Virus record (IMG/VR): IMGVR_UViG_3300041809_000972
Coordinates: 1-38,582 of that record
Direction: 5' to 3' (one strand)
Source: a virus
Lineage: Duplodnaviria > Caudoviricetes
Length of the DNA stretch: 38,582 nt
The number at the start of each line of letters is the position of its first letter. The stretch's first letter is position 1. Of the stretch, positions 276 through 33,334 are shown piece by piece. Under the pieces are notes generated by a model. It made no database searches, had not been told where the DNA came from, and worked only from the letters and a program-made list of their open reading frames with translations. The translations under genes were made by a program, and so were the position numbers.

Positions 276-495
276 AACCAAGGAGATGACCCACGAGGAG
301 TTCGCGAGGCTCGTGATCCGCAAGACGGAACTCGATGCCGAACTCAAGGCGGTCCGAGAGGTGATCAAGCGCTGCCCGTTCGAGTTGCCATTTGCGCTGA
401 AAATCGATGACAACATCGTGTCGGTGAAGCCGCCCCAGTACGTGAACGGAATGCCGAAAGTGGAGGTCATACCTCTGCTGGGGATCGGCTCGTGA
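259..495 (+). CDS. hypothetical protein (78 aa)
   Basis: GAGGAGG upstream; GTGA overlap with the next gene. Confidence 0.6.
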   Translation: MSAPAKTKEMTHEEFARLVIRKTELDAELKAVREVIKRCPFELPFALKIDDNIVSVKPPQYVNGMPKVEVIPLLGIGS

Positions 496-1367
496 TCATC
501 CTCATCGAGGGGATCGACCGAACTGGTAAGTCCACCCTCGCCGATCGCCTCAGTGCCTTCACGGGCGGGACTATTTTCCACTTCAGCAAGCCTGAAACCC
601 ACCCGCTGTACGAGTACACAGCGTCGCTCGCAACATACGACCCGGTCAGGTCCACCGTGATCCTCGACCGGAGCCACGTCGGGGAGAGCGTCTGGCCGCT
701 GGTGTTCGACCGGCCGTCGAAGCTCGACGAGCCGATGCGACGGTGGCTCAACATGTTCTACATGTCGCGGGGCGCTGTGCTGCTACATGCGGTGCGCGCC
801 GTCGATCAGGCGACGGCCGACGAGTACGAGGCGGCCGGTGAGCCCATCTACCTACTCGGAGACATCGACTACGCAGCGAACCTGTACCGCTCGGTCGTGT
901 CGGAGACGGGACTTCCCGTGTGGGAGTACGAGCACGGTGGCTGGCCCGGCGCGGCCCTGCACGAGGCCGCTCGGCGCTCCGTGATCGCAAGCGAACTGAT
1001 GGGCGTCACACCGCGATGGGTCGGGTCGCCCGCACCGCGGCTCCTCATCGTGGGCCCACACGACAGCCACCGCGCGATGCCGTCCATGCCGTATGAGGAT
1101 ACGGATGCGCACTTCCTACTGGGCGAGCTCAGCGGGTGGAGGCAGTGCGCACTCGTGAACGCGGTCCGACCGGACGGCGAGGGTGTTGAACCCCTGAAAG
1201 CCCTGTGGCGTGGGCTCGGTTCGCCGGCGGTCGTGGCCATCGGAGGCGAGGCAGCGGATACCGTCAGATCATGCGGGATGGCTCCCGATGATGTGATCGG
1301 AGACCTGCACGGTTGGCGTAGGACGACATCGGGCAACCTCGGCGAGTACCTAGGGAGGATCGTATGA
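492..1367 (+). CDS. dNMP (thymidylate-kinase-like) P-loop kinase fused to a degenerate uracil-DNA-glycosylase-like domain
   Basis: IILIEGIDRTGKST P-loop and ILDRSHVGESVW (TMK DR motif). C-terminal half has PRWVGSPAPRLLIVG...ALVNA...VVAIGGEA, a UDG-superfamily layout. Confidence 0.75.
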   Translation: MIILIEGIDRTGKSTLADRLSAFTGGTIFHFSKPETHPLYEYTASLATYDPVRSTVILDRSHVGESVWPLVFDRPSKLDEPMRRWLNMFYMSRGAVLLHAVRAVDQATADEYEAAGEPIYLLGDIDYAANLYRSVVSETGLPVWEYEHGGWPGAALHEAARRSVIASELMGVTPRWVGSPAPRLLIVGPHDSHRAMPSMPYEDTDAHFLLGELSGWRQCALVNAVRPDGEGVEPLKALWRGLGSPAVVAIGGEAADTVRSCGMAPDDVIGDLHGWRRTTSGNLGEYLGRIV

Positions 1368-1609
1368 ACGTGAAGATCACACCCGGCGAGCACGAACCCG
1401 AGCGGATCGAGGTGACCCTCTCCCGGCGTAACCTCCTGTCCCTGCTCGCGAAGCTGGACGGCCACCCGCCGAACTCGGCCTGCACCATCGACCGCAACAT
1501 ACGGGAAACTGACCTCGTCGTGGTCGCACAGGAGGATGAGGACCACTACGCGGATCGGCAGGTCGCGCGCGGCATCATGCACCCGGATACCGAGGAGGCG
1601 ATCGCGTGA
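1364..1609 (+). CDS. hypothetical protein (81 aa)
   Basis: GGGAGG RBS; 4-nt overlaps with the genes on both sides. Confidence 0.65.
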   Translation: MNVKITPGEHEPERIEVTLSRRNLLSLLAKLDGHPPNSACTIDRNIRETDLVVVAQEDEDHYADRQVARGIMHPDTEEAIA

Positions 1610-2418
1610 GGAAGACGAACAAGCGCTGGCAGAGCAAGCTCGAGGAGCTCCTCGATGACGGCATGACGGTCTCACCGCGGGGTAAAGAGACGCGCGAGCA
1701 GCTCGCAGGTCAGTACCGTGTGCCGATGCCCGCTTACCTATCGCTGGCCGCGCGGAAGGTCAACATCCCGTTCCTCCTCGCGGAGCCTGCGTGGATCCTG
1801 TCCGGCAGCAACCGGCTCAAGGATCTGATGCCGTACATGCGCGCCTACCAAACGTTCAGTGACGACGGTGTGTTCCTGCGGGGGGCGTACGGTCCCAAGA
1901 TCGTCGATCAGCTCCACTTCATCGTGGACTCGCTCGCCGAGGACGAATCGTCGCGTCAGGCGTACCTGAACATCTGGCGTGAGCGCCCGCAGAAGGCTGC
2001 CGACATCGCGTGCACGACCGGGATGCAGTTCGTAATCCGAGGCGGCGCACTACACTGCATCACGACGATGCGGTCCCAGGACATCGTGCAGGGTTTCACC
2101 TTCGACGTGTTCATCTTCTCGTGCGTCGCCGAGGCGGTCCGCCTCCTCCTCGCTGAGCGGGGTGTGCACGTGGTGCTCGGCGACCTTACGGTCACCGCGG
2201 GATCGATGCACCTGTACCGCGATCCGTTCGGGAAGGGGGATGACCAGTTCGCGAAGGCGCGGTCATGGGTGTCAGCCACCACCGAGGATTCGACCGTCGA
2301 GCGCTACGTCACGGTTGCTTTCCAAGCCAAATCGTTCGACGGGTTCATCAGCCAGCTGTGGCAGTCGGCGAACGACGCAAAAACAGAGATCGCGCTCCGT
2401 GCCAGGTCCGCTGGATAA
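1606..2418 (+). CDS. thymidylate synthase-fold enzyme, probable dCMP hydroxymethylase (or dCMP C5-modifying enzyme)
   Basis: AEPAWILSG, GAYGPKI, SRQA, catalytic Cys in DIACT, MRSQDIVQGFTFD and GSMHLY. The specificity position is Asp (codon 2104-2106), as in T4 gp42 RSNDVVFGFRND, not Asn as in ThyA. Confidence 0.8.
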   Translation: MRKTNKRWQSKLEELLDDGMTVSPRGKETREQLAGQYRVPMPAYLSLAARKVNIPFLLAEPAWILSGSNRLKDLMPYMRAYQTFSDDGVFLRGAYGPKIVDQLHFIVDSLAEDESSRQAYLNIWRERPQKAADIACTTGMQFVIRGGALHCITTMRSQDIVQGFTFDVFIFSCVAEAVRLLLAERGVHVVLGDLTVTAGSMHLYRDPFGKGDDQFAKARSWVSATTEDSTVERYVTVAFQAKSFDGFISQLWQSANDAKTEIALRARSAG

Positions 2419-8319: not shown

Positions 8320-8665
8320 CGACATTCTCAGCGAGGCCCACGGCATCATCCGTGGCGAGCGGTTGCAGCACTACGGGCCACCGACCAGGAACTTCCGACG
8401 CATCGCTGACGGATGGTCGGCGTACCTCGGGTTGGATACGGCCGTGGACGAGCTCGTGGACGATCTGAACGCGGGGAACCTCGACGACCTGCGCACGAAG
8501 CTCGAAGGGTTCAAGACGCACCTCACCGTCAACGACGTGTGCGCGCTGATGGTCATCCTCAAGCAGATGCGGATGGCCGACAACGGGTACCACCGCGACT
8601 CGGCCGTGGACACATGTGGGTACGCGGCACTACAGGAGATCCTCGAGGAGGGAGTGGGGCTATGA
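8309..8665 (+). CDS. DUF6378-like protein (all-alpha, predicted nucleotide pyrophosphohydrolase fold)
   Basis: ILSEAHGIIRGERLQHYGPPTRNFRRIADGWSAYLG...MVILKQMR...HRDSAVDTCGYAAL. Confidence 0.75.
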   Translation: MDGNDILSEAHGIIRGERLQHYGPPTRNFRRIADGWSAYLGLDTAVDELVDDLNAGNLDDLRTKLEGFKTHLTVNDVCALMVILKQMRMADNGYHRDSAVDTCGYAALQEILEEGVGL

Positions 8666-9216
8666 GCGTCGAGTTTGTCTCGTTTCCGAAGATCCCACGC
8701 CTCCGGCGCGGCTGCCTCATTACCGAGAAGATCGACGGTACGAATGCCGCGGTCGGGATCACCGAGGATGGTGAGGTGTACGCCCAGTCGCGGAAGCGAC
8801 TGATTCACCCCGGTAAGACGACCGACAACGCCGGCTTCGCCGGATGGGTGCAGGAGAACGAAGACGCGCTGCGTGTCGGCCTCGGACCCGGGCTGCACTT
8901 CGGTGAGTGGTGGGGCGCCGGGATACAGCGCAGGTACGGCTTGGACGAGAAACGCTTCTCACTCTTCAACACCGGCCGCTGGAGCGGTACGCCGATCGTG
9001 GAGTCCGGCCTCGTGAGCGTGGTGCCTGTGCTCTATGCGGGTGTGTTCGACACAGATGCGGTCGACCGCGCTCTCGAGGAGCTGCGCACCGGTGGCTCAG
9101 TCGCGGCACCCGGGTTCATGGACCCGGAGGGCGTCGTCGTGTTCCTCTCCGCATCGCGCACACTCTTCAAGGCGACGATCATCGGCGATGACACGGGTAA
9201 GGAACAGGACTCATGA
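8662..9216 (+). CDS. RNA ligase family protein (nucleotidyltransferase)
   Basis: FPKIPRL, motif I TEKIDGTNA, QSRKR, FGEWWG, FSLFN, PEGVVV and FK; start at ATG 8662. Confidence 0.85.
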   Translation: MSVEFVSFPKIPRLRRGCLITEKIDGTNAAVGITEDGEVYAQSRKRLIHPGKTTDNAGFAGWVQENEDALRVGLGPGLHFGEWWGAGIQRRYGLDEKRFSLFNTGRWSGTPIVESGLVSVVPVLYAGVFDTDAVDRALEELRTGGSVAAPGFMDPEGVVVFLSASRTLFKATIIGDDTGKEQDS

Positions 9217-11029: not shown

Positions 11030-11730
11030 TGGCAGACCTCAACCTCCAGGAGGCACTCGCCCGCCACGAAGCGGAGCAGCCGACCCTCCTTCCTGATGGT
11101 GCATACACCTTCGAAGTCACCCGCGCGACCGCCGGCGAGAACTACATCGGCGCGTTCCTCAAGGTCATCGGTGGACCCGAGGCCGGCAAGATGGTGAAAA
11201 TCTCGCTGTCGTTCACCGACAAGGCGATGGGCATCGCGTTCCAGAACCTCGCTGGCTTCGGCATCGGGAAGAACGAGATCGCGCAGGCCAGCGGACTCAA
11301 GGACCTCGCCACGCTGCTGACGGGTCGCGTCGTCGAGTTTCCGGAGTTCGGGCGCCGCGAGCACAACGGTCGAGAATACCCGTCGTGGCCGATCGGCAAG
11401 ATCAACCTCATCTCGCTCGGGACCGCTAACGGTGCTCCTGCAGGGGTACCGGCACCGGCCGCCGCTGCACCGCCCGTCCCGGCTCCCGCACCTCCGGCAC
11501 CGCCGGTCGCAGCAGCGCCCGCAGCTGCGCCTCCGGTCGCGGCGCCCGCCGCACCTCCGACACAGCCTCCGGTACCTCCCGCCGCACCTCCCGCGGCGCC
11601 CGCTCCGCAAGAGGCGGCACCCGCTGCGCCTCCGCCGGCACCACCCGTCGCAACTGCGCCTCCGGTCGCGGCGCCCGCCCCAGTCGCCGCGCCTCCGGTC
11701 GCTCCCGACGGCACACCCTCCCCGTTCTGA
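11026..11730 (+). CDS. ssDNA-binding protein (DUF669-like) with long Pro/Ala linker and PF C-terminus
   Basis: LLPDGAYTFEV...GPEAGK OB-fold-like N-terminus; about 95-aa P/A tract; ends PSPF. Confidence 0.65.
   Translation: MMADLNLQEALARHEAEQPTLLPDGAYTFEVTRATAGENYIGAFLKVIGGPEAGKMVKISLSFTDKAMGIAFQNLAGFGIGKNEIAQASGLKDLATLLTGRVVEFPEFGRREHNGREYPSWPIGKINLISLGTANGAPAGVPAPAAAAPPVPAPAPPAPPVAAAPAAAPPVAAPAAPPTQPPVPPAAPPAAPAPQEAAPAAPPPAPPVATAPPVAAPAPVAAPPVAPDGTPSPF
11440..11720 (+). repeat. Pro/Ala low-complexity coding repeats
   Basis: CTGCGCCTCCGGTCGCGGCGCCCGCC occurs at 11525-11550 and 11654-11679, with further degenerate copies. Confidence 0.7.
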
Positions 11731-12233
11731 TGGCGGGGAGGACCGGCAGCGCTGATGAGCCGTTCTTCGACGCTGGCAACGTCGTGAACCGCGAGCCGCC
11801 CACCGTGGTAGACATGGTCACGGTGCTGGACTCGGACCTGTACGAGGCGGGGCTGCAGCAAGGGTACGCGAATGACGTGTGTGTCGACCTTGCGGTGAGG
11901 TACTCGTCCCCGCAGCTCGCGGCCCATACCACACACCGTGCGCCCCTCGGGATCAGCGTCGCGATCCCGGACGGATACGTCGGGATTGTGGTTCCCAGGA
12001 CATCGACTGCCAGCGAAGGTGTGCAGGTCAGCACCCCCGTGATCGACCCAGGGTACGAGGGCGAGGTGCATACCTGGCTCACGTCTCCGGTCCCCACGAG
12101 GTACGCACGCGGGCAGCTGCTCGTCGGCCTGCTCGTGGTACCGTGCGTACCGCCCGGCGCGACGGCACGTAGGGATGGTCCGCGTGGCATTGGGACAACC
12201 GCGAGCTCGGACACGAAAGGACCGACCCCATGA
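11730..12233 (+). CDS. trimeric dUTPase/dCTP-deaminase-fold protein, divergent
   Basis: VDL (motif 1), IPDGYVGIVVPRTS (2), VIDPGYEGE (3), GQLLVGL (4, conserved Gln lost), PRGIGTT (5). The true start may be ATG 11814. Confidence 0.75.
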   Translation: MAGRTGSADEPFFDAGNVVNREPPTVVDMVTVLDSDLYEAGLQQGYANDVCVDLAVRYSSPQLAAHTTHRAPLGISVAIPDGYVGIVVPRTSTASEGVQVSTPVIDPGYEGEVHTWLTSPVPTRYARGQLLVGLLVVPCVPPGATARRDGPRGIGTTASSDTKGPTP

Positions 12234-12415
12234 GCAACGTCATCATCACGATCCGTGAGGATCACGAGGGTAGCCTCGATGTGAAATGCGAGTTCGAGCC
12301 TGCCATCACGCGTGGCCAGGATTGGGATGCCATCCCATTCACACACAAACTTGCGATGGCCATGATGGAGCGCGCGAGCGCCGTCGGAGGCGACGCGGAG
12401 GTGACGCCATCATGA
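12230..12415 (+). CDS. hypothetical protein (61 aa)
   Basis: AAAGGA RBS; ATGA overlaps. Confidence 0.6.
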   Translation: MSNVIITIREDHEGSLDVKCEFEPAITRGQDWDAIPFTHKLAMAMMERASAVGGDAEVTPS

Positions 12416-13692
12416 GACGCAACTTCGTCGACTGCCAAGGGCTGGCTGGGGCGTGGAGCCTCGGCACAGCACAGGCCGGCTTCGACCTCCTCCACCGCGT
12501 GGCGCTTCCGGGAGGGTTCGGCAACGCGGTGATGGAGGAGAACCGTAGCAAGTTCCGTGGGCTGAACACCTGGTGGCATCAGGAGGACGGCACACCCGCG
12601 GACGGATGGACGCCACAGATGAACGTCTCGTTCCTGTGCGGCACACCACCGTGTTCAGGCTTCTCGCTGATGAACGCATCCAAGGGTGAAAACGCCCGCG
12701 GTCCAGGTAGCCTCATCAATAACTGCATGCGTGAGCTCATCACGTACGCGGGTATGTGCACGGGATCTGACGGCCGACCCGGTCCCGAGATCGTATCGTT
12801 CGAGTCTGTGCAGGGCGCGTACACGCAGGGACGCTCGCTGATGGTGGAGCTCCTCACGATCCTGAACGAGCTCACATATGCGCGGTACGCGACCGACTCC
12901 CGCTTCGACGTCCCACGTTACGAGATAACGCACGTGCTGATGTCCGGCGGTTCCGTGGGGGCTGCCCAGATGCGGCACAGGTACTTTCCGGTCTTTCACC
13001 GGATCCCGTTTGGCGTCGATCAACCGCCGGAGCGTCACGTCACGACCTACGAGATGGCGATCGGTGACCTGCAGGGAGCCAAGTTGCAGTGGGAGGATCA
13101 GCGGTACAAACGGAAGGACCGCTTCCAGTTTCAGACGGACCGCCGCCGCGACGACGGCCTCTTTGACTCGCACGTCACGAAGGACGAGGGGCGCGTGGCC
13201 GACGTCATCCACCAGTTCTGGGACGGGTGGAACATCGGCGAGAACCTGACCCAGTCTCTCGAGCGCCGCGGCATCCGCCCGCCCGAGCTGGAGAAATCGT
13301 GGAACGAGGCTGAGCAGAAATACAACGGGTGGAGCTGGCCCGTCAAGATCCGCCCAGACCGCTGTGGCTACGTGCTCACGGGCGGTGCCATCCACGGCGT
13401 CGTCCACTGGGCGGAGCCGCGCCTCCTTACTGTGCGCGAGTGCTCGCGCCTCATGGGTTACCCAGACGCCTGGACATGGCCCACAGGAAACTCCGGCCAG
13501 GCGTCGATGTGGATCGGGAAGTGCTGCCCCGTGAACAGCGGGCAGTGGCTCTCCGAATGGGCGCTTCGCGCCCTCGAAGGTGACCCAGGTGAGCCCGGGG
13601 CTAAAATTGGAGAGGATGAGAACCTCTTCAACTGCACCCTCGCCTATAAGAAGTGGCCGGGTGGATCCGTACCCAAGCGACTGGAGGATTGA
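12412..13692 (+). CDS. C5-cytosine DNA methyltransferase-fold enzyme with atypical cofactor-pocket residues
   Basis: Motif I VDCQGLAG, IV GTPPCSGFS, VI FESVQG, VIII QMRHRYF, IX RLLTVRECSRLMGYPD, X IGKCCPV. Confidence 0.88.
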   Translation: MRRNFVDCQGLAGAWSLGTAQAGFDLLHRVALPGGFGNAVMEENRSKFRGLNTWWHQEDGTPADGWTPQMNVSFLCGTPPCSGFSLMNASKGENARGPGSLINNCMRELITYAGMCTGSDGRPGPEIVSFESVQGAYTQGRSLMVELLTILNELTYARYATDSRFDVPRYEITHVLMSGGSVGAAQMRHRYFPVFHRIPFGVDQPPERHVTTYEMAIGDLQGAKLQWEDQRYKRKDRFQFQTDRRRDDGLFDSHVTKDEGRVADVIHQFWDGWNIGENLTQSLERRGIRPPELEKSWNEAEQKYNGWSWPVKIRPDRCGYVLTGGAIHGVVHWAEPRLLTVRECSRLMGYPDAWTWPTGNSGQASMWIGKCCPVNSGQWLSEWALRALEGDPGEPGAKIGEDENLFNCTLAYKKWPGGSVPKRLED

Positions 13693-17678: not shown

Positions 17679-18281
17679 ATGAACTCCCTTAGCATCACCG
17701 AGATCGACTTCCACGAGCGTCAGCTCCCGAAGTGGCGCCCAGCCGTCAGCCGGTACAGCCGCCCGTACATGTCACCCACGCCGGCCGAATACAACAAGAA
17801 GATGCGCTGCTACATCAGCCCCAAGGGCGAGACCGTCCTGGAGAACCTCTTCGTCGGCCGCCGTAACCGCCCCACTGACCTCTACCGTCGCGAGCTCATG
17901 CCGACCCTCAAGGCGAAGATCGCCGAGTTCCTCGGCTGCCAGTCCGAGCAGGTCAAACTGAACTGGTCACAGCACGCAGGCTGCTCGATGTGCCCCTGCT
18001 CACCTGGGTACATCGTCACCGCTCCGGTCCAGAAGGCTGTGGACATCTACGTCTCGGTGGAAGCAGCCGAGGACGCCGCAGCCGTCACGGCTGAGGCCAA
18101 GCCGGTACTCGACCAGGTACGCAACGAAGTCGCCGCAGCCCGGACACAGAGTGGCCGCGGTCCTTCCGGCAAGCTCCGCAACTTCAGCGCCATGTCGGCC
18201 GAGAAGCTCGCAGCCGTCCGTGATGCCGTTGTCCGCGAGAACAACGACGCCGAGGCACTGGCTGTCCTGGTGGCATCATGA
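17679..18281 (+). CDS. hypothetical protein with WSQHAGCSMCPCSPG motif
   Basis: AAGGAG RBS before ATG 17679; phage-like codon usage. Confidence 0.7.
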   Translation: MNSLSITEIDFHERQLPKWRPAVSRYSRPYMSPTPAEYNKKMRCYISPKGETVLENLFVGRRNRPTDLYRRELMPTLKAKIAEFLGCQSEQVKLNWSQHAGCSMCPCSPGYIVTAPVQKAVDIYVSVEAAEDAAAVTAEAKPVLDQVRNEVAAARTQSGRGPSGKLRNFSAMSAEKLAAVRDAVVRENNDAEALAVLVAS

Positions 18282-19489
18282 GGAACTACCGAGCCATGAA
18301 GGATGAGAAGTTGCTCCGCGTCGCGGACGAACTGGAGGCGAGCATCGGTCCCGCCGAGGACCTGCCCACCGTCCTGCAGCTCGTGGCCGACCGGGGTCTC
18401 GAGCGGAGCGGCACACCGGTTGAGGCAGCCGTACGGCCGAGCGGTCGGATGTACGCAACGGCCGCCCTCGCCCCTATGACCTGCAAGGCAGTGGGGTTCG
18501 TGCGGGAGGTCGGCGAACCGACCGACTGGCTGATGAACCCGAAGCTGGACGGGTATCGCCTCGTCTGCGTCGTGGAAGACGGACGGGTCAGCATGATGAG
18601 CCGCGGCGAAAAGTGGCAGGACGGGAAGTTGCCGTACCTGGAGGACGCTCTGCTCAAACGCTTCCCGTGCGGGACCGTGCTGGATGGCGAGATCTGCGCG
18701 CTGCGCGAGGGCACGGCCGCCGGCGAGCCCCGCGTCGTGAACGACTTCGAGCACGTGCAGTCGATCATGAACAGCGACGCGGAGAAGGCCGTGTGGAAGG
18801 CGTCACACACTAGACCGCTGACCTACCACTGCTTCGACATCCTGCAGCTCGGTGGGACCGACCTGCGCGGGAGGCCGCTCGTCGAGCGCCTGAACGTGCT
18901 AGACGAGCAGCTGAACGAACGTGGCATGGACATCGCGGACGACAACCTCTTTCAGCGGACGCCGTACGTCGAGGCTGCGCAGGAGACCCACGACGCGTGG
19001 GTCGAGGCCGGATTCGAGGGGACCGTCCTGAAGCGGAAGGACAGCACGTACAGGGTCGGGCAGCGTGGCCACGGGTGGGTCAAGATCAAGCACAAAGCCG
19101 AGATGGATGCCATCATCGTCGGCTTCATGCCGGGTCAGGGTCGGCTCAGGGGGCAGGTCGGGTCCACGGTATTCGCGCAGCGGACGACTGACCCGGAGAT
19201 GCTCAGGAAATCGGCCGAGTACATCAAGCGGCTGCGCGCGGAGGCCACCAAGCGTGGTGGTGAGCTCTACATCAACGAAGACCTGATGGATGGGCTCGGG
19301 TTGGCGATCCGGGGCGCCTGCAGCGGGTACGACGACGTTGAGCGGGCTGACCTCGAGGCGAGGATCGGGGACGTCATCAGCGTCCACCACAACGGCCTGA
19401 TGGCCGGTGGCCTGAAGGTCCGCCACCCGCAGTTCTTCCGCAACCGCGAGGACAAGACCCCGGCCGAGATCGGGTGGCACCATCGATGA
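18278..19489 (+). CDS. ATP-dependent DNA ligase
   Basis: PKLDGYR (motif I), LDGEI (III), CFDIL (IIIa), EGTVLK (IV), WVKIK (V) and an OB domain ending RHPQFFRNREDK. Confidence 0.92.
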   Translation: MRNYRAMKDEKLLRVADELEASIGPAEDLPTVLQLVADRGLERSGTPVEAAVRPSGRMYATAALAPMTCKAVGFVREVGEPTDWLMNPKLDGYRLVCVVEDGRVSMMSRGEKWQDGKLPYLEDALLKRFPCGTVLDGEICALREGTAAGEPRVVNDFEHVQSIMNSDAEKAVWKASHTRPLTYHCFDILQLGGTDLRGRPLVERLNVLDEQLNERGMDIADDNLFQRTPYVEAAQETHDAWVEAGFEGTVLKRKDSTYRVGQRGHGWVKIKHKAEMDAIIVGFMPGQGRLRGQVGSTVFAQRTTDPEMLRKSAEYIKRLRAEATKRGGELYINEDLMDGLGLAIRGACSGYDDVERADLEARIGDVISVHHNGLMAGGLKVRHPQFFRNREDKTPAEIGWHHR

Positions 19490-20263: not shown

Positions 20264-20571
20264 TCGCCGCATTCACCGCGCTGCTGCTAGCGACCGCAGC
20301 GCCGCGTCACTACGAGGTGTCATCGACGTGCTACGCTCAGGGCGGCGTGACCGCCTCGGGCGAGGACGCATACCTCGGGGAGGTCGCCGTCCTACCGGGA
20401 TTCCTTCCGCTGGGTACGCACATCAGGCTCGATCATCCCGAGTTCGGGAGGAGAAACTACGTCGTGCTTGACCACATCGGACACGGGTCGGAACTCGACA
20501 TCTTCAATCCTTCGGAAGAGGCTTGTATCCAGTACGGTCGGCGCGAGATTGGATTTACGGTGTCACGGTGA
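20260..20571 (+). CDS. secreted 3D (Asp-Asp-Asp) domain protein, lytic-transglycosylase-like
   Basis: Signal-like N-terminus; STCY..GVTASG..VAVLPGFLPLGTHI..VLDHIG..LDIF..EACIQYGRR. Confidence 0.75.
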   Translation: MIAAFTALLLATAAPRHYEVSSTCYAQGGVTASGEDAYLGEVAVLPGFLPLGTHIRLDHPEFGRRNYVVLDHIGHGSELDIFNPSEEACIQYGRREIGFTVSR

Positions 20572-21086
20572 TCCTCCAGCGCATCCTCATGGAGCAGGAC
20601 CCGACCGGCTGGCGGATGATGAACGGGTGCATCCTGCTGAACCTCACGAGGCGGCAGCAGGTGGACCTCGTGTACCCGGAGCTCTTCCGCTGCTACCCGG
20701 ACCCGGGCCACATGCGGAATGCGTGGCAGACAGACCTCGCCGACAAGCTTCGTCCGCTCGGTCTGCAGTACAGGCGCGCGGAGACCCTGCGTAAGTTCAG
20801 TGACTGGTGGTGCCGAGCGTGGGACCCGGGCGAGGACATGACGATCACGCTGGGTCAGGTGCCCTACCCATCGTCCTTCCTCGAGCGGATACGCGCGATG
20901 GAGCCTCCGGGCATCGGCGAGTACGCACGTGACAGCTGGGCGATCTTCGTGGAAGGCATCGTGCCGGACTGGGAGGTCAACGATCACGCCCTGCTGGAGC
21001 ACCTCAGCGAGCTCGACCCGATGATGTGGTGCACCGATCGCCGGCCTTGGGAGCCCGAGGCGTACTGGGCCGAGCGGATCAGATGA
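20568..21086 (+). CDS. MBD4-like HhH-GPD DNA glycosylase (G:T/G:U/G:5hmU mismatch)
   Basis: WRMMNGCILLNLT, LRPLGLQYRRAETLRKFS, PGIGEYARDSWAIF and NDHAL parallel MBD4 WKLLIATIFLNRT, LKPLGLYDLRAKTIVKFS, HGIGKYGNDSYRIF and EDHKL. Confidence 0.85.
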   Translation: MILQRILMEQDPTGWRMMNGCILLNLTRRQQVDLVYPELFRCYPDPGHMRNAWQTDLADKLRPLGLQYRRAETLRKFSDWWCRAWDPGEDMTITLGQVPYPSSFLERIRAMEPPGIGEYARDSWAIFVEGIVPDWEVNDHALLEHLSELDPMMWCTDRRPWEPEAYWAERIR

Positions 21087-22265: not shown

Positions 22266-22342
22266 TCCGCAAGGATCCGGCACACTACGGTCCGATCTTC
22301 CCTGGTGTACCCGACGACCTACCGTACGTCTGGCCGGTCTAG
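22211..22342 (+). pseudogene. C-terminal remnant of an MSMEG_6728-family / pyrimidine-dimer glycosylase (endonuclease V-like) gene
   Basis: EPEWLGDPYFHLSHQSNLIRKDPAHYGPIFPGVPDDLPYVWPV matches the family C-terminus. The N-terminal MQTFLP...LDxxRLGKQRVE region is not present in frame. Confidence 0.65.
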
Positions 22343-23320
22343 CAGCTGCCGCCACGGCTCGGCCGCGAGCGGGAACGAGCGTGACGGGACCACGGCGTCG
22401 CGTGCCACCCTGCCGGCCGCAGCTATCTGTCCCGGCCGCTGGAGGAAGGTCCGCAGGATGTCCGCAGCTTCCGCGGGGTTGGACGCCACCAGCTCGGCTT
22501 CCGGGTAGATGTACGGGGCGCAGATGCACGGCTGACCCAGTGCGCTCGCCTCGAGCCACCGCAGGTCACTCTTGCCACGGTACCACTTGTCCTGGCCTGC
22601 GGGGGCGAGGAAGACGTCGATGCCGGCCATCGCGGTCGAGTAGGTCCGGAACGGTCCCCACGGGATGCCGAGGGCACGCTCGTCCCCCAGCCGTTCGATC
22701 GCTAGCTGCGCGACCTCAGGCTGACCGATCGCGAGGAACTGCGCGGTCGGATGGTCGTCAAGCGCATCGAGGATGCCACCTTCGAGCCACGAGCGCACCG
22801 CGCTGTAGTGGCCGGTGCCGCCGGCCCAGCCCACGGTGACAAAGTCCCGCTGCGGTTTCTCGTACGCGTACCGCTCCGCGTCGATCCCGTTCCGGCACAC
22901 CGTGATGCGTGGGTTGATGCCGCGGTACCGTTCGGCGAGGAAGGGTGTGGAGACGATCACCTCGTCGCACATCGCCATGCAGCGATCGTACTCCTTCATC
23001 TGGGCCGGTGTGAACCACTTACTCGATCCGTGATCGATGAGGTGGCGGATTCCGTGCAGGTAGTCGTCAGTCTCGTATAGCACGCGGACGCCTTTATCCC
23101 GGAGCTTTGAGATGCGTCGTTCCCACTTAGCTCCGCACGCCTGTTGACACACGACCGTATCGTACTGGTCGATGTCTGGGATGCCGTCTACGTTGCCAGT
23201 CTCCACCTCGAAGTCGGGCGAGACGCCGATCCAGTCGTGACCCAGTGCTTCGGCGGGTAGCCGGCACCTGTAGTGGGTGACGGCGTTGCGGCCCAGCCCG
23301 ATGAACAGGACCCTACTCAT
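22319..23320 (-). CDS. GT-B fold glycosyltransferase (GT4-like)
   Basis: YRCRLPA, YETDDYL, VIVSTPFLA, VGWAGGTGH, DVFLAP and KSDLRWLEASALGQPCI; start ATG 23320. Confidence 0.85.
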   Translation of the reverse strand: MSRVLFIGLGRNAVTHYRCRLPAEALGHDWIGVSPDFEVETGNVDGIPDIDQYDTVVCQQACGAKWERRISKLRDKGVRVLYETDDYLHGIRHLIDHGSSKWFTPAQMKEYDRCMAMCDEVIVSTPFLAERYRGINPRITVCRNGIDAERYAYEKPQRDFVTVGWAGGTGHYSAVRSWLEGGILDALDDHPTAQFLAIGQPEVAQLAIERLGDERALGIPWGPFRTYSTAMAGIDVFLAPAGQDKWYRGKSDLRWLEASALGQPCICAPYIYPEAELVASNPAEAADILRTFLQRPGQIAAAGRVARDAVVPSRSFPLAAEPWRQLLDRPDVR

Positions 23321-24050
23321 GTGGGAATTCCTCGAATGTGCGGCCCCTGTATTTCTCCTGTAGCCTGACCCAGCTCGCGTTTGTCCACTCCACAATCCGC
23401 TTCGTCGGACGACCGCGGCTCAGCGACTCGTGATGGTACGCTTCTGCGCCAGGCTCGTACGCGCAGGTCATCCCCGCATCGAAGGCGCGGATACAGTAGT
23501 CCACGTCCTCCCATCCGAGGCGGAACCGGTCATCGTACAGCCCGATCCGCTCGAGCGCCTCGAGGCGCACGAGCTGCAGAGCTCCGGTCACCGGGCAGGT
23601 CCGCGGGTGGTGGACGGCGGGCAGGTCGACCGGCGCGTATTTGAACTGCTCCGCCCACGCGCGCTGAAGCTGGCAGTAGTAGATCCCAGCGTGCTGCACC
23701 ACACCGTGTGGGTAGATGAGCAGGGCGCCGACGACCTGAGCCGGGTTCGCTTCCATCGCCTCAAGCCACGGCTTCGTGAACACGATGTCGGTGTTCACCA
23801 GCACCGCATCCCGCTGGCTGTCGAGCGCCATCTGCAGGCCGACGTTGACGGCGCTCGAGAACCCGCCGTTCTCCTTGCGGATCCCCGCCGCGTCGAACTC
23901 GCGTGCGACGTCGAGTGCACCCTCGAGCGGACCACCGTCATCGACCACGACGGCGCCGCAGTCCGCGGTCCGGCGCATCGAACGGAGGCACTTGCGGAGC
24001 GTCTCGAGGTCCTCCTCGGTGCGTGCGTATGACGGGATGACCGCTAGCAT
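23313..24050 (-). CDS. GT2 glycosyltransferase (rhamnosyltransferase-like)
   Basis: VIPSY, VVDDG, ENGGFSSAVNVG, LVNTDI, VTGA, DDRFRLGWEDVDYC and HHESLSRG. Confidence 0.9.
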   Translation of the reverse strand: MLAVIPSYARTEEDLETLRKCLRSMRRTADCGAVVVDDGGPLEGALDVAREFDAAGIRKENGGFSSAVNVGLQMALDSQRDAVLVNTDIVFTKPWLEAMEANPAQVVGALLIYPHGVVQHAGIYYCQLQRAWAEQFKYAPVDLPAVHHPRTCPVTGALQLVRLEALERIGLYDDRFRLGWEDVDYCIRAFDAGMTCAYEPGAEAYHHESLSRGRPTKRIVEWTNASWVRLQEKYRGRTFEEFPHE

Positions 24051-24868
24051 CTGTGCCCGTAGTACTCGAGCGTGCTGACCTCAGCACCGCAGCGTCCGCA
24101 GGTCTGCGCGAAGCGCTTCCCATCCTTCTCCACCACGAACACGCCCTCTCCCTTGATCCACGGATGCCGCGCATCGATTAGCGGGATGTTGCGCTCGTTT
24201 TCTCGGGTGATGCGCCCGATGTCCACCGGGTGCCACATGTGGTAGCCCCGGGCACGCGGTGCGCATTGGATCGGTACCCCGTGGGCGACCGCCCGTAGGC
24301 CGAGCTCGCCATCCTCGCCGCGGTGCACCTCGTTCCAGAACCCGCCGAGCCTCAGGAATTCCCGCAGGTCCCACATCAGGTTCCCGCCAAAGCACGCGAG
24401 CCCGACGTTGAGCTGCTCCGTGCTGGCGTACTCCGGATCGAACCATCGCTCCTCGCGGAACATCTCCCACCGCGGGTCGCTGAAGTTCTCCGGATCCGGC
24501 TCGCGGCGGCCGGGGCCCATCCAGTCGTACGCGCCGATCACGATCCGTCCTGGACGCCACTTCTCGAGCATCGCCTCGAGAGCTTCCGGGACGAGGAGGA
24601 TGTCGCTATCGACGAACCACACAGCGTCGGTACCGAGCTCACGGGCGCCGATGTTCCTCAGCTGCTCCGTCTCACCCGGTATGAAGCGCTCCGCGCGGAT
24701 CGTGTGGACATTGTCCGCAGGGGGCACCCACCGCACCGCCTCCCTGCCGTCGAAGACCACGATGATCCGGTCCGGCTGGACCGTCTGCTGCTCGAGCGTG
24801 CCGAGGACCGCACGGAGGTTCTCCTCGCGGTTGGGTGCGCAGGGTATGACAACGCCGACGGAGGTCAT
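24044..24868 (-). CDS. GT2 glycosyltransferase with C-terminal CxxC
   Basis: VGVVIPC, VVFDG, LRNIGA, FVDSDI, GEDGELG and HMWHP. Confidence 0.85.
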   Translation of the reverse strand: MTSVGVVIPCAPNREENLRAVLGTLEQQTVQPDRIIVVFDGREAVRWVPPADNVHTIRAERFIPGETEQLRNIGARELGTDAVWFVDSDILLVPEALEAMLEKWRPGRIVIGAYDWMGPGRREPDPENFSDPRWEMFREERWFDPEYASTEQLNVGLACFGGNLMWDLREFLRLGGFWNEVHRGEDGELGLRAVAHGVPIQCAPRARGYHMWHPVDIGRITRENERNIPLIDARHPWIKGEGVFVVEKDGKRFAQTCGRCGAEVSTLEYYGHRC

Positions 24869-25356
24869 GGCAGCAGCCTCTTGATGTCGGACAGGAGCGG
24901 AAGACGTTCGCAGATCCGGCCGTCATCCCAGCTCCACCACTGCACCGCCAACAGCTGCTCGACCACCTCCTCGCTGAACCGCCACCGGATCACCCGAGCC
25001 GGGTTGCCGACCACGACCGCGTAGGGCTGCACGTCTTTCGCGACAACCGCATGCGCACCTACGATGGCGCCGTGTCCGATCGCGATGCCGTCGAGCAGGG
25101 TGACCCCCTCGCCGATCCACACGTCGTGTCCGATGGTGACCCTGTGCGGCCCGCCGGACTGCGGGTAGTCACCCCATCCGTGCTCATAAAACGGGAAGGT
25201 CGAGACGCACTCGGGGTTCGCGATCGGCGGATGCTGACCGGAGACGACGGTGAGACCCGAAGCGATGGACGTGAAGTTGCCTACCTCGAGTAGCAGGTCC
25301 TCGTAGCCCCTCGCATCCTCGGGGAGGGTGGAGTGTCGGCCGAGCTGCGTGATCAC
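24865..25356 (-). CDS. left-handed beta-helix O-acetyltransferase (CatB/Vat-like)
   Basis: VSTFPF, IGHDVWIG, IGHGAIVGAHAVVAKDVQPYAVVVGNPARVIRWRF and QWWSW. Confidence 0.9.
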   Translation of the reverse strand: MITQLGRHSTLPEDARGYEDLLLEVGNFTSIASGLTVVSGQHPPIANPECVSTFPFYEHGWGDYPQSGGPHRVTIGHDVWIGEGVTLLDGIAIGHGAIVGAHAVVAKDVQPYAVVVGNPARVIRWRFSEEVVEQLLAVQWWSWDDGRICERLPLLSDIKRLLP

Positions 25357-27264: not shown

Positions 27265-27470
27265 AGGTTGCCCCTGTCGCGTTCTTCTTGCAAGAGCTCC
27301 TCGTGCCGTGCCATCTCGATGGCGTCGCGTTCGTCCATCAGGCGACCACGCCGGACCTTCCACAGCCTCCAGTGATCCTCGACGTCGTAGTGGAAGATGA
27401 GGAACCACACGAAGAAGCTTCCGACGAAGCTACCGGATGCGGAGATCAGCCACTCTGCGATGATGCTCAT
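27261..27470 (-). CDS. small membrane protein
   Basis: GGAGGT RBS; MSIIAEWLISASGSFVGSFFVWFLIFHY helix; 4-nt overlaps on both sides. Confidence 0.6.
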   Translation of the reverse strand: MSIIAEWLISASGSFVGSFFVWFLIFHYDVEDHWRLWKVRRGRLMDERDAIEMARHEELLQEERDRGNL

Positions 27471-30448: not shown

Positions 30449-31252
30449 ATGATCAAGCAAGCATCCACCACGAAGGTGATCCCGATCACCGACATCTTCC
30501 TCGACTTCGCTGACGAGGGAGGCTACCAGCGCCGCAGGTCCGAGGACGAAGCCATCCGCATCGCCGAGCACTACGATCCGGACCTCTTCGAGATCCCGCA
30601 CGTGTCCGACCGGTCGGTGCACGACCTCCCGCTCGGACCGAACGGCGAGCGGTACTCGATGCCAGACGGCGGCGCGCGGCTCATGGCCGCGGAGCTGATG
30701 GGATGGAAGTCGCTGAAGTGCGAAGTCCACGTCTTCGAACGGGTCGAGGATGAGGCGAAGCTGTTCGCGGACCTCGCGACCGGCCGCAAGTCCATCACGC
30801 CGCTCGACACGTTCTTCGCCCGCCTGCGTGAGGGTAGCGGTGAGCACGTCGCCCTCTCGACCATCCTCGAGAGTGCGGGCTGGAAGATCAGCACCGGATC
30901 AGGCAAGCGCTCGATCAGTGCGGTCCAGCAGACGATGTCCGCCTACCGCAACTACGGGGAGATCCCGATGCGACGAGCGCTCATGCTGCTCGAAGCATGG
31001 GATGAGGACGAGCACGTCTCCGGACCCATCCTCGCGGGGATGGTGCAGTTCGTCGCCGAGTACGGATCCCAGATCGACATGGACAGCGCGCGCCGCAAGC
31101 TCGCGAAGGTGCCGATGTCGACCATCTACCGCCGTGCGAAGCACGCATCCCAGCTCAGCAGCAACGCCGGCAAGCTCAGCGCGCACGTGGTGGGCGAGCT
31201 CCTCGCCGAGTACAACCGTGGCCGTCGTACCACGGCGCTGGTGGCCGCATGA
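30449..31252 (+). CDS. ParB/Srx-like N-terminal domain protein (DUF6551-like)
   Basis: YQR, IAEHYDPDLF, VSDR, PDGGARLMAA (variant of DGxHR) and EAKLF. Confidence 0.7.
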   Translation: MIKQASTTKVIPITDIFLDFADEGGYQRRRSEDEAIRIAEHYDPDLFEIPHVSDRSVHDLPLGPNGERYSMPDGGARLMAAELMGWKSLKCEVHVFERVEDEAKLFADLATGRKSITPLDTFFARLREGSGEHVALSTILESAGWKISTGSGKRSISAVQQTMSAYRNYGEIPMRRALMLLEAWDEDEHVSGPILAGMVQFVAEYGSQIDMDSARRKLAKVPMSTIYRRAKHASQLSSNAGKLSAHVVGELLAEYNRGRRTTALVAA

Positions 31253-32268
31253 GGATCGGCCTGTGGCGCACCTCGATGTACAAGGACGACGGCGTGTACC
31301 GCGGCTTCGTCGCGCTGGAGCGGGCGCTGAAGCGGTTGGGCCACGAGGTGGTCACGGTCGGCGCGCCGCGACCGAACGTCACCAAGTTCGACGGGTGTGA
31401 CGTCGTGTTCGTCTACGAGGCGATGTGGAACTGGGGGAAGAAGACCGACCCGACCACCGTCCTCGAAGGCGTCCGCCGCATCGGACCGGAGCGCTGCATC
31501 CTCGGGGTGAACTGCCCGCTCGACTCGCTGCACGGTGATGTGCGCGAGCCGACGCTGCAGCTGCTGCAGATCGTGCCGCGCGTGTGGACGAACTCGCGCC
31601 ACCGTGTGGCCGGCTACCGCGACGACGCCTTCGTCTCGCCGTACATCCTCCACTGGCCGGAGTTCCCGGCCTACGCGGGAGGAGCCTCCGGCGTCATCGC
31701 GACGGGGCGCATCTGGGACAAACGCAAGCGGCTGCTGCTGCCCATCGAGCACGGGTACCGGGGCGGCTACACGCTGTGTGGGTCGCTCGGCCTGTTCGGC
31801 GGCTGGGTCCGGAAGGAGCTGATGGCGGCGGGGGCCGAGATGGTGTCGGCCGAGCCATCATCCGGCAGTAAGCCGTGGATGGTGACGTGGCCGGGATACG
31901 ACACCACCCTCGTATACGAGGGCAAGTACAAGGACTTCACGATGGTTCCGTGGCACCTCGCGAAGGTCCATTTCGCGGGGGTCGAGGCTGAGTGGGTAGG
32001 AGACCCCGGCCTGCTGGAGACCGTCACCATAGAGGCGATGGACGCTGGCCTGAACGTGGTCGTACCCGTGCACTCGGCGCGACCAGTGCTCGGGTACAAC
32101 TCGATCTTCACCTTCGAGGGCGACGACCCGACCGCGGCCATCGAGGCAGCGATGGAGTCGCCCCCGCTCGACCACTCACACGACCTCGCCCTCCACGACC
32201 CGCTGCTGTTCGCGCGCAGGCTGCTCGCGTGGAGCTGGACGCCCCACGAATACCCGCTTGCGCAGTAG
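31249..32268 (+). CDS. divergent GT-B glycosyltransferase, candidate DNA-base glycosyltransferase
   Basis: MRIGL...ALKRLGHEVVTV, DVVFV, ATGRI..KRK and LETVTIEAMDAGLNVVVP (EA-x2-G GT-B motif). Confidence 0.7.
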   Translation: MRIGLWRTSMYKDDGVYRGFVALERALKRLGHEVVTVGAPRPNVTKFDGCDVVFVYEAMWNWGKKTDPTTVLEGVRRIGPERCILGVNCPLDSLHGDVREPTLQLLQIVPRVWTNSRHRVAGYRDDAFVSPYILHWPEFPAYAGGASGVIATGRIWDKRKRLLLPIEHGYRGGYTLCGSLGLFGGWVRKELMAAGAEMVSAEPSSGSKPWMVTWPGYDTTLVYEGKYKDFTMVPWHLAKVHFAGVEAEWVGDPGLLETVTIEAMDAGLNVVVPVHSARPVLGYNSIFTFEGDDPTAAIEAAMESPPLDHSHDLALHDPLLFARRLLAWSWTPHEYPLAQ

Positions 32269-32291
32269 GACGTTCACCCGTAAACACAACC

Positions 32292-32313
32292 GATGAAGCT
32301 GTGAGGATACTAT
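32292..32313 (+). promoter_or_regulatory. candidate class III promoter
   Basis: Intergenic GATGAAGCTGTGAGGATACTAT; similar to 5680-5701. Confidence 0.45.
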
Positions 32314-32353
32314 GTCAGTAAGCACAAGTCAGTACCGCAACATGGGAGCAGAC

Positions 32354-33334
32354 ATGAAGGACCCGCTCAACATCATCGACTTCATCCTCGAGCGGCAGAC
32401 GATGTGGCACCAGATGGAAGTCCTCGAGGAGCTTCCGTACACAACGGACATCATCCTTGCCAGCCGCCGCTTCACCAACGTCCAGCGCGAGTTGGACCGC
32501 GGCACATGGTGCCTACGTCTCGCGCTCGAGGCGCACCGGGGCGCAACGCCGGCCGAAAAGGTCCTCAACGAGATGCTCCACCTCCTTCTGCGAGGAGGCA
32601 CACAGGCGCTCGATATGCTTGGCTGGCAGGATGGAAAGACCGTCCCCGGCATCCTGAGCGTCCAGCGCCAGCTGAAGACGTGGGGCCTACCGTTCGTCGG
32701 ACGCGCCGGACAGGCGCGGGCGCCGCGACCGGCCGACATCGGGCTCAGCAGTAAGGAGGAGCTGCATGAGCTTCCGCGGGGAGAGCCTCTCGCGATGTAC
32801 TTCGAAGCCATCATTCGCAAGTGGTTGGCCGAGGGCACCCATGAGAAACTGGCAGCGGTCTGTGCGAGTGCCGACTCGCTCGAGGCTGTGTTCGACGAGG
32901 CCTGCGCCATCACAAATAGGTTCGGCGCGATGCAGATCGCCTTGAACACCACCTACAGCCACGAGCATCTGACCGATGACGAGTGGGTGTTCTTCCATCA
33001 TGGCAAGACGAACAGTAAGACTGCGGACCGTGGCAGCCTCGTCGGCTTGATGGAGATCGCCACCTACCATCCCGGACGCTACCGGAACTCGACGGCACTC
33101 GAGCTCGCACGGGAAATCGTCAAGGATCAGGATCGCCTGTTCCCCGGATGGGCGGGCGTAGCCTGTCCCGCAAAGCCGCGGTTGACGCTCGCGGATCTCG
33201 AGCACGCATCCTGTGAGTACTCGAAGTACAGGCGCATCCGCGGGGCCACCTACAGCCCGTCGCGGTACACACCATCAGTTGGGCGGAAGTCGATATGGCT
33301 CGCACATAGGGATCAGCTGCCCGATAAGTGGTAA
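32354..33334 (+). CDS. aGPT-Pplase1 / 5-hydroxymethyl-dU DNA kinase helical-domain family protein
   Basis: FILERQTMW..PYTTDIILASRRFTNVQRELDRGT and LTLADLEHASCEYSKYRR are the N- and C-terminal signatures of the family; GGGAG RBS before ATG 32354. Confidence 0.8.
   Translation: MKDPLNIIDFILERQTMWHQMEVLEELPYTTDIILASRRFTNVQRELDRGTWCLRLALEAHRGATPAEKVLNEMLHLLLRGGTQALDMLGWQDGKTVPGILSVQRQLKTWGLPFVGRAGQARAPRPADIGLSSKEELHELPRGEPLAMYFEAIIRKWLAEGTHEKLAAVCASADSLEAVFDEACAITNRFGAMQIALNTTYSHEHLTDDEWVFFHHGKTNSKTADRGSLVGLMEIATYHPGRYRNSTALELAREIVKDQDRLFPGWAGVACPAKPRLTLADLEHASCEYSKYRRIRGATYSPSRYTPSVGRKSIWLAHRDQLPDKW

What the first reader, a model, noticed from the sequence alone, without database searches (positions are those of the whole stretch)
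12412..13692. C5-MTase naturally carrying motif X Asn->Lys and motif IV Gln->Ser: a possible non-methyl (e.g. carboxymethyl) transferase
Seen: motif X reads IGKCCPV (Lys codon 13519-13521) instead of GN[SA]V. Motif IV reads PPCSGFS instead of PCQ. Motif I reads DCQGLAG instead of DLFxGxG. Motif VI reads ESV instead of ENV. The catalytic Cys, Glu and the motif VIII RxR are retained. Known: these Gln and Asn positions (M.HhaI Q82/N304) are mutated to admit bulky AdoMet analogues, and M.MpeI N374K uses carboxy-SAM to make 5-carboxymethylcytosine. C5-MTases can also exchange or remove the hydroxymethyl group of 5hmC in vitro without SAM. Inference: the enzyme still activates cytosine C5/C6 but may use a different cofactor or act on 5hmC. 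That would explain why a 5hmC-making phage keeps a cytosine 'methylase'.
Basis: partly seen in the sequence, partly recalled or inferred. Interest (0 to 1): 0.8.

Follow-up and report, generated by a model that had tools for sequence, protein, structure and literature searches.

The report
Rebuilt cytosine methylase of hydroxymethylcytosine phages
This phage gene encodes a look-alike of a DNA cytosine methylase that keeps the residues that attack cytosine, has a rebuilt cofactor pocket with a fixed lysine, and travels with a predicted hydroxymethylcytosine-making enzyme, so it likely does an untested non-methyl reaction on that modified DNA rather than the carboxymethylation first proposed.

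Summary
All named residues are real. Lys370 aligns with M.HaeIII motif X Asn and CmoX Arg350, and is invariant in 116 of 116 aligned close homologs. Natural carboxymethylation is already published (CmoX, PMC12783734), and this protein is not CmoX. It lacks SPPC, Arg350 and most of CmoX's cofactor contacts, and branches separately. None of 40 family-bearing records encodes CmoA or a CmoY-type ligase; the S-B43 control rings for both. Instead, 39 of 40 encode a thymidylate-synthase homolog, and 30 of 30 inspected have the dCMP-hydroxymethylase signature. In helicase-selected relatives the gene never occurred without that enzyme (0 of 17 records). A sister family with Gln at motif X has the same neighbour, so the lysine is not the whole story. 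Pocket residues do not track the variable sugar modules. Best reading (0.4): SAM-independent removal or exchange of the hydroxymethyl group on bare 5hmC. Main rivals: one-carbon transfer to residual C, or attack on unmodified host C. No activity is shown. The scan found this family before on other genomes. Cultured Gordonia and Micrococcus phages make it testable.

The parts
12412..13692 (+). C5-methyltransferase-fold protein, 426 aa (the finding)
   Evidence: PF00145 E 5e-18; below the TIGR00675 dcm cut-off, 30.7 vs 100.65 bits; model and fold match
12430..12450 (+). Motif I DCQGLAG: Phe->Gln9, first Gly->Leu11
   Evidence: Register from the profile alignment to M.HaeIII; no Gly at position 11 in 113 of 113 close and 119 of 119 distant sequences with a residue there
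12496..12522 (+). Rebuilt motif II: Arg29, ribose-binding Glu replaced by Ala31, new GGFG loop
   Evidence: Ser/Ala/Thr in 116 of 116 close homologs; Glu kept in 85 of 123 distant ones
12643..12657 (+). Motif IV TPPCS with catalytic Cys81
   Evidence: Cys in 116 of 116 and 123 of 123 sequences with a residue there
12802..12810 (+). Motif VI ESV (Glu131)
   Evidence: Glu in 116 of 116 and 138 of 138
12973..12981 (+). Motif VIII RHR (Arg188, Arg190)
   Evidence: Invariant in alignments A1 and A2
13519..13521 (+). Lys370 at motif X
1606..2418 (+). Thymidylate-synthase homolog with dCMP-hydroxymethylase signature (Asp at 2002, Cys at 2011, Asp at 2080, Asp at 2104; E. coli 143/146/169/177)
   Evidence: PF00303; positions; signature from PMC13326640; the Xp12 homolog has Asn at 143
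492..1367 (+). dNMP kinase fused to a degenerate uracil-DNA-glycosylase-like domain
   Evidence: PHROG thymidylate kinase E 6e-5; homolog L007 hits Pfam UDG weakly, E 0.009; alignment
11730..12233 (+). dUTPase/dCTP-deaminase-like protein in the slot where relatives have a MazG-like pyrophosphatase
   Evidence: PF00692 E 5e-8; MazG-like gene within 3.2 kb upstream of the gene end in 69 of 83 loci
31249..32268 (+). Candidate DNA glycosyltransferase
   Evidence: No Pfam or PHROG hit; Atlas feature score 0.97 to viral glycosyltransferase clusters including PF11440; lead only
32312..33334 (+). HMUDK helical-domain protein
   Evidence: PF18723 E 7e-17; fused to a family member in P0138 but found in only 2 of 40 related records

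Best explanation
It is an intact member of a so far virus-only family with the DNA cytosine-C5 methyltransferase fold, in a phage predicted to replace cytosine with 5-hydroxymethylcytosine (5hmC), and it likely flips out bare 5hmC, adds Cys81 to C6 and removes or exchanges the hydroxymethyl group without SAM. Shown: the fold, the retained Cys/Glu/Arg-x-Arg, the changed cofactor-pocket residues, the invariant Lys, and the one-way co-occurrence with an Asp-type thymidylate-synthase homolog. Inferred: (1) that homolog makes 5hm-dCMP and most cytosines are substituted; (2) the pocket no longer binds SAM productively; (3) Lys370, at the position that lies beside the C5 substituent in CmoX, acts as acid/base or formaldehyde acceptor; (4) the purpose is to clear or cap 5hmC left bare by the sugar-adding enzymes, since bare 5hmC is a target for modification-dependent restriction (recalled). 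Step 4 is the weakest.
For: Catalytic residues invariant. Motif I Phe and first Gly changed family-wide, motif V Leu->Cys and motif II Glu lost in this clade, whereas CmoX keeps F25, G27, E47, F48, D69. TS homolog in 39 of 40 records, 27 of 27 IMG/VR records at least 90% complete; 30 of 30 fetched have Asp143/Asp169/Asp177. Helicase-selected control, 32 records: both genes 10, family gene alone 0, TS alone 5, neither 17; joint absence falls on at least five separate branches of a quick tree. Sister family (Gln at motif X, 36 of 36) has an Asp-TS within about 3 kb in 3 of 3 loci. The window's TS groups with AXL3/HTVC119P, not with that of its closest relative, yet keeps the signature. AXL3 DNA resists 35 enzymes with G/C sites (PMC7504290 passages). 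TS-positive loci do not avoid GATC/CCGG/CGCG and do avoid TTAA. Pocket residues follow the family tree, not the sugar module. C5-MTases are reported to dehydroxymethylate 5hmC without SAM (PMC11347137 passage).
Against: No activity was measured, and I could not inspect model coordinates or dock ligands. The motif II Glu is kept in 85 of 123 distant members and 36 of 36 sister members, so a ribose-like ligand, possibly SAM in a new pose, may still bind. Asp-TS phages exist without the gene (G045, G060, AXL3, HTVC119P), so it is dispensable. No k-mer signature specific to the gene was found. One-way dependence is explained equally well if the enzyme is harmful to unmodified DNA. The sister family manages with Gln, so Lys cannot be essential to the shared chemistry. 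M.MpeI structures take an 'out' loop form with bulky 5-substituents, which suggests 5hmC is a poor substrate for an ordinary fold.
Confidence: 0.4

Rival explanations
1. It patches residual unmodified cytosine in phage DNA by adding a one-carbon group: a methyl from SAM bound in a rebuilt pocket, or a hydroxymethyl from a formaldehyde-type donor.
For: A MazG-like pyrophosphatase lies just upstream in 69 of 83 loci, suggesting a shared job of excluding plain C. Motif II Glu is often kept. The fold is closest to true methylases.
Against: A protective mark on plain C should be useful without the TS homolog, yet the gene was found in 0 of 17 TS-less related records. CG is not depleted (log2 +0.29 in 45 loci vs -0.29 in 11 gene-less loci; GC content differs between the groups). 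A bulky residue replaces the motif I Gly throughout.
Confidence: 0.2
2. It attacks unmodified cytosine in host or rival DNA without a cofactor, by deamination to uracil or by covalent trapping, while the phage's own C5-substituted DNA is immune.
For: This explains why the gene never occurs without the TS homolog and why no full-length member was found in the scan of 185,579 prokaryote genomes (close-clade patterns only). Recalled, not checked: SAM-binding mutants of M.HpaII and amino-bearing SAM analogues raise C->U deamination, which a built-in Lys could mimic. A UDG-like domain is fused to the kinase in the window and several relatives.
Against: The kinase is short (161-196 aa, apparently without the UDG-like part) in several gene-bearing loci such as Kurnik, L051 and L057, and long in gene-less AXL3. 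Conserved polar pocket residues (Asn/Thr78, Asn103, Lys/Arg29) suggest a bound ligand. Absence from cells also follows from a lytic lifestyle.
Confidence: 0.18
3. It is a natural carboxy-SAM-dependent cytosine carboxymethyltransferase like CmoX or M.MpeI N374K.
For: Basic residue at exactly the CmoX R350 position; PPCS shared with CmoX.
Against: CmoA model rings in 0 of 40 records, 0 of 2 sister records and not in the window's own record (41% complete), but does in S-B43. Asn-synthase/CmoY rings in 0 of 40. The fused or nearby class I methyltransferases do not hit CmoA. Four CmoX adenosine contacts are changed or not conserved here. CmoX groups with Dcm-type enzymes in a quick tree, on a long branch. 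C5 is predicted to be already occupied. Among likely hosts, only the Corynebacterium glutamicum control was tested for CmoA (no ring).
Confidence: 0.07
4. It acts on the finished, sugar-bearing base, removing or exchanging the sugar through an exocyclic methylene intermediate, or serves as a base-flipping partner of the hypermodifying enzymes.
For: Fusions to HMUDK_hel (1), FkbM-type (7) and UbiG-like (3) domains among 30 long homologs. 67 of 83 loci have a candidate hypermodifier in the fetched DNA.
Against: Near-identical pocket residues occur with three unrelated modules (GT-B type, ADDT/inositol type, the window's own), and one module occurs with different pockets.
Confidence: 0.08

Closest known systems
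SpCmoX, DNA cytosine C5-carboxymethyltransferase of Synechococcus phage S-B43 (PDB 8YF3; PMC12783734)
   Same: Fold (Z 25.7, rmsd 2.9, 283 aligned), catalytic Cys, basic residue at motif X, PPCS, phage-encoded
   Different: 23% identity over 321 columns; Lys not Arg; TPPC not SPPC; F25/G27/E47/F48/D69 not conserved; ESV not ENV; no CmoA or CmoY; tied to an Asp-type TS homolog; separate branch
Canonical C5-cytosine DNA methyltransferases (PF00145; M.HaeIII, M.HhaI, DNMT1 catalytic domain)
   Same: Whole fold including a recognition domain (Z 26-31); Cys, Glu, Arg-x-Arg
   Different: Motifs I, II, V, VI and X changed; below the TIGR00675 cut-off
Engineered M.MpeI N374K carboxymethyltransferase (as cited in PMC12783734)
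   Same: Asn->Lys at motif X
   Different: The single change was made on a normal SAM pocket; here the pocket around the Lys is rebuilt and no Cx-SAM source is encoded
Phage T4 5hmC pathway (dCMP hydroxymethylase, dNMP kinase, dCTPase, glucosyltransferases)
   Same: The surrounding module: Asp143/Asp177 TS homolog, kinase, pyrophosphatase; the commonest neighbouring unknown folds as GT-B with T4 beta-glucosyltransferase among the top matches (E 8e-8, TM 0.46)
   Different: T4 is not known to have such a C5-MTase-fold enzyme (recalled); sugar modules differ among these phages

Membership tests
CmoX carboxymethyltransferases | SPPC motif | tested here: not met
   TPPC; Thr in 114 of 116 close homologs, Asn/Thr/Cys/Val in most distant ones
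CmoX carboxymethyltransferases | Arg at position 350 | tested here: not met
   Lys370; Arg in 1 of 138 distant representatives
CmoX carboxymethyltransferases | Cx-SAM adenosine contacts F25, E47, F48, D69 | tested here: not met
   Gln9, Ala31, Leu32 at the first three; no conserved Asp near motif III
CmoX carboxymethyltransferases | CmoA and amide ligase typically encoded alongside | tested here: not met
   0 of 40 related records for each, positive control rings; own record only 41% complete
CmoX carboxymethyltransferases | Forms 5cxmC from Cx-SAM | not testable with these tools
   needs LC-MS
Canonical C5 DNA methyltransferases | C5-MTase fold | tested here: met
Canonical C5 DNA methyltransferases | Catalytic Cys (IV), Glu (VI), Arg-x-Arg (VIII) | tested here: met
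   invariant
Canonical C5 DNA methyltransferases | Motif I FxGxG | tested here: not met
   QGLAG; register
Canonical C5 DNA methyltransferases | Motif II acidic ribose ligand | tested here: not met
   Ala31 here; Glu in 85 of 123 distant members
Canonical C5 DNA methyltransferases | Motif III Asp | tested here: inconclusive
   no conserved Asp at 59-63, but the alignment is unsure there
Canonical C5 DNA methyltransferases | Motif X Gly-Asn | tested here: not met
   Gly-Lys
Canonical C5 DNA methyltransferases | SAM-dependent formation of 5mC | not testable with these tools
   needs an assay
T4-type pre-replicative 5hmC pathway (the phage) | TS homolog with acidic 143, Cys146, Asp169, Asp177 | tested here: met
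   signature from PMC13326640
T4-type pre-replicative 5hmC pathway (the phage) | dCTP-destroying pyrophosphatase | tested here: inconclusive
   dUTPase-like gene in the window, MazG-like gene in 75 of 83 loci; substrate unknown
T4-type pre-replicative 5hmC pathway (the phage) | DNA glycosyltransferase | tested here: inconclusive
   Atlas lead for 31249-32268; GT-B fold for the common neighbour in relatives
T4-type pre-replicative 5hmC pathway (the phage) | 5hmC derivatives in virion DNA | not testable with these tools
   only indirect k-mer support

The most novel reading that the evidence does not exclude
A dedicated natural enzyme, evolved from a DNA cytosine methylase, that edits 5-hydroxymethylcytosine in DNA without SAM: it strips the hydroxymethyl group back to cytosine or swaps it for a new substituent. 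It would be a direct 5hmC eraser or writer of a kind that I found described only as a side reaction in vitro.
Probability: 0.35. Interest if true: 0.88.

Novelty: new variant of a known kind. Interest (0 to 1): 0.62.

Why it matters
Direct enzymatic removal of the hydroxymethyl group from 5hmC has been reported as a side reaction of ordinary methylases; I found no dedicated enzyme for it in my searches. If this family does it, or installs a new group on 5hmC, it adds a new activity to the C5-methyltransferase fold, a new layer to phage anti-restriction chemistry, and a possible reagent for 5hmC mapping or editing. Even the rival readings (cofactor-free attack on unmodified host cytosine, or an unusual one-carbon donor) would be new. 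The family is annotated simply as 'methyltransferase' in cultured phages of Gordonia and Micrococcus, so the question can be settled with existing stocks.

Tried and rejected
Kinase-coupled model (5hmC phosphorylated by an HMUDK-type enzyme, then substituted by this protein): HMUDK_hel occurs in only 2 of 40 records, so rejected as a general mechanism. Sugar-specific role: pocket residues do not track modules. CpG or other motif methylase, or self-mutator: no gene-specific k-mer depletion; CC depletion is shared with gene-less TS phages L130 and AXL3. Divergent CmoA hidden in fusions or nearby methyltransferases: no CmoA hit among 12 such proteins. Xp12-type dCMP methylase: the Xp12 homolog has Asn at 143, ours Asp; the Kurnik row of that tree was a mis-extracted ORF and is ignored. 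Dependence on a glycosyltransferase: inconclusive; G045 lacks the gene but has an HMUDK_hel protein, and G060 is 37% complete. The careful helicase tree did not finish, so only the quick tree was read. The metagenome-contig collection was not scanned. Literature: ten searches found no description of this family or of base modifications in its cultured phages; Iyer et al. 2013 (NAR gkt573) was not held and could mention it; supplements of the CmoX paper were not read. No complex prediction was run because no binding claim is made.

Full report
Observation. HMMER places IGKCCPV against M.HaeIII IGNAVPV and CmoX VGRMVP. An AlphaFold2 model from 116 homologs (pLDDT 94.7) matches C5-methyltransferases over residues 1-392: DNMT1 6W8V Z 31.3, rmsd 2.7, 346 aligned; M.HaeIII Z 29.6; CmoX 8YF3 Z 25.7. 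I could not inspect coordinates, so pocket statements rest on alignments and on published or recalled residue roles.

Family. A protein search returned 304 homologs and listed 120; I aligned 116. Cys81, Glu131, Arg188, Arg190, Gly369 and Lys370 are invariant. A profile search added 141 representatives: Lys in 135 of 138 with a residue there, Cys in 123 of 123, Glu in 138 of 138. The cofactor side is rebuilt. Motif I Phe is mostly Gln/His/Tyr/Asn (a few distant members keep Phe). The first Gly is Leu/Phe/Tyr/Ser in all 113 close and 119 distant sequences with a residue there. Motif V reads I-N-x-C-M where M.HaeIII has R-G-K-L-F, and a GFG loop follows motif II. The motif II Glu is lost in this clade but kept in 85 of 123 distant members, which argues against total loss of ligand binding. 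A scan of 185,579 prokaryote genomes with close-clade patterns gave only short matches to ordinary methylases, and the three nearest Atlas clusters shown are 100% viral. Cultured carriers are Gordonia phages Forza, Boopy, Mareelih, BlueNGold, Sixama, GodonK, Phendrix and GMA2 and Micrococcus phage Kurnik; DSL-LC01, assembled from lake water, also carries it (15 records, 30-33% identity).

Not CmoX. PMC12783734 (read: parts 1-4 of 8 and passages; no supplements) shows that natural DNA carboxymethylation exists. It defines CmoX by SPPC plus Arg350, with F25, E47, F48 and D69 holding Cx-SAM, typically beside CmoA and an amide ligase. CmoX keeps FAGGG, NEF, DDI and ENV and falls with Dcm-type enzymes, on a long branch, in a quick tree; identity to our protein is 23%. 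I searched 40 family-bearing records (37 of the longer IMG/VR contigs among about 80 loci, plus 3 GenBank phage records): CmoA 0 of 40 and Asn-synthase 0 of 40, while S-B43 rings for both (E 2.5e-34 and 4.4e-15). The window's own record has none but is only 41% complete. Host CmoA was not tested beyond the Corynebacterium glutamicum control.

Context. The same 40 records carry a thymidylate-synthase homolog in 39 cases, including 27 of 27 IMG/VR records at least 90% complete. All 30 that were fetched have Asp at E. coli positions 143, 169 and 177, as does the window's gene. PMC13326640 (read: part 1 of 10, passages, section 28) links Asp177 to dCMP, acidic 143 to hydroxymethylation and Asn169 to hydroxylation; the homolog of the 5mC phage Xp12 has Asn143. 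A MazG-like gene occurs in 75 of 83 loci, 69 just upstream; the window has a dUTPase-like gene in that slot. The window's TS is closest to those of AXL3 and HTVC119P rather than to that of its nearest relative, so it was probably swapped for one with the same signature. AXL3 DNA resisted 35 of 37 restriction enzymes, all with G/C sites (PMC7504290, passages). In a matched clade (5 TS-positive vs 7 TS-negative loci), GATC, CCGG and CGCG are 1.0-1.5 log2 less avoided and TTAA and ATAT 1.6 more avoided; the window has 0 TTAA against 5 expected. This fits genome-wide cytosine modification but is indirect.

Lineage control. Among 13 complete records the split is 6 both and 7 neither (Fisher p 0.0006, not corrected for kinship); joint absence lies on at least five branches of a quick tree. 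Three of the five TS-only contigs end before the expected slot; G045 and G060 lack the gene after MazG in the DNA held. So dependence runs one way: the gene needs the TS homolog, not the reverse. A sister family with invariant Cys, Glu, Arg-x-Arg, a changed motif I and Gln at motif X (36 of 36) sits next to an Asp-TS in 3 of 3 loci from different gene layouts. The link to modified cytosine therefore appears older than the lysine.

Which substrate. Relatives use different hypermodification modules: a GT-B protein resembling T4 beta-glucosyltransferase (42 of 83 loci), two other glycosyltransferase types (10 and 5), the window's own candidate (1), an ADDT/kinase/inositol set (9), or none in the fetched DNA (16). 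Pocket residues follow the enzyme's own tree and stay the same across modules, so the substrate is likely common to all: bare 5hmC or plain C. A protective mark on plain C should be useful without the TS homolog, which was not seen. That leaves chemistry on 5hmC, or an activity harmful to unmodified DNA. Dehydroxymethylation by C5-methylases without SAM is cited in PMC11347137 (passages). Thiol condensation on 5hmC, the deaminating M.HpaII motif I mutant, and actinobacterial type IV nucleases are recalled and come from no call. I put 0.4 on removal or exchange at 5hmC, 0.2 on one-carbon patching of residual C, 0.18 on attack on host C, 0.08 on action on the glycosylated base, 0.07 on carboxymethylation, and the rest on something unlisted.

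Novelty. Ten literature searches found no description of this family; the library is incomplete and Iyer et al. 2013 was not held. PMC8670742 was read in passages only. Earlier notes of this scan reached a similar reading on other genomes; these are not independent evidence. My reading was recorded before I opened them, and the co-occurrence claims were retested here. Verdict: a real, uncharacterised variant of the C5-methyltransferase fold tied to 5hmC phages, not a CmoX member, mechanism unproven but directly testable.

Noticed in passing
L010, L011, L014, L028, L029, L033, L035, L061 (next to the family gene): Module of an ADDT-like amino acid:DNA transferase, an HMUDK-like P-loop kinase and, in several, myo-inositol-1-phosphate synthase, a HAD phosphatase, a dual-specificity phosphatase and FkbM, in phages with an Asp-type TS where checked: a candidate inositol-on-5hmC hypermodification using enzymes known from 5hmU pathways.
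   Followed up: partly
L021:9029-10159, L022:8021-9124, L269: Sister C5-MTase-fold family with YLIGAGS motif I, WET motif II, ENA and AQG motif X, beside dNMP kinase, dCMP deaminase and an Asp-TS.
   Followed up: partly
window 1606-2418: The TS homolog groups with AXL3 and Pelagibacter phage HTVC119P TS (SH-aLRT 99), not with that of the closest relative G001: probable replacement by transfer.
   Followed up: partly
window 22319-28183 (- strand): Cluster of six predicted glycosyltransferases (five GT2-type, one weak GT4-type), a hexapeptide acyltransferase and a methyltransferase, opposite to the replication genes; possibly virion glycosylation.
   Followed up: no
window 20523-21086: HhH-GPD/MBD4-like glycosylase (weak Pfam hit, E 0.017); homologs in G002 and L012; may repair deaminated modified cytosine.
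   Followed up: no
window 30449-33334: ParB-like (DUF6551), candidate glycosyltransferase and HMUDK_hel genes in one run, far from the TS gene: likely this phage's hypermodification module.
   Followed up: partly
P0095, P0121: Two family members carry an intein with a LAGLIDADG domain inserted near residue 75-79, just before the catalytic PPC motif.
   Followed up: no
P0167, P0216 C-terminal domains; AXL3_31 (L116:6650-7474): The fused class I methyltransferase domain resembles, by eye, the stand-alone AXL3_31 that sits beside the Asp-TS of AXL3.
   Followed up: no
45 family-bearing loci: CC/GG dinucleotides are depleted (median log2 -0.42 vs -0.07), also in gene-less TS phages L130 and AXL3: possible selection against adjacent modified cytosines.
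   Followed up: partly
window 8413-9216 and 18278-19489: RNA-ligase-family protein and ATP-dependent DNA ligase.
   Followed up: no
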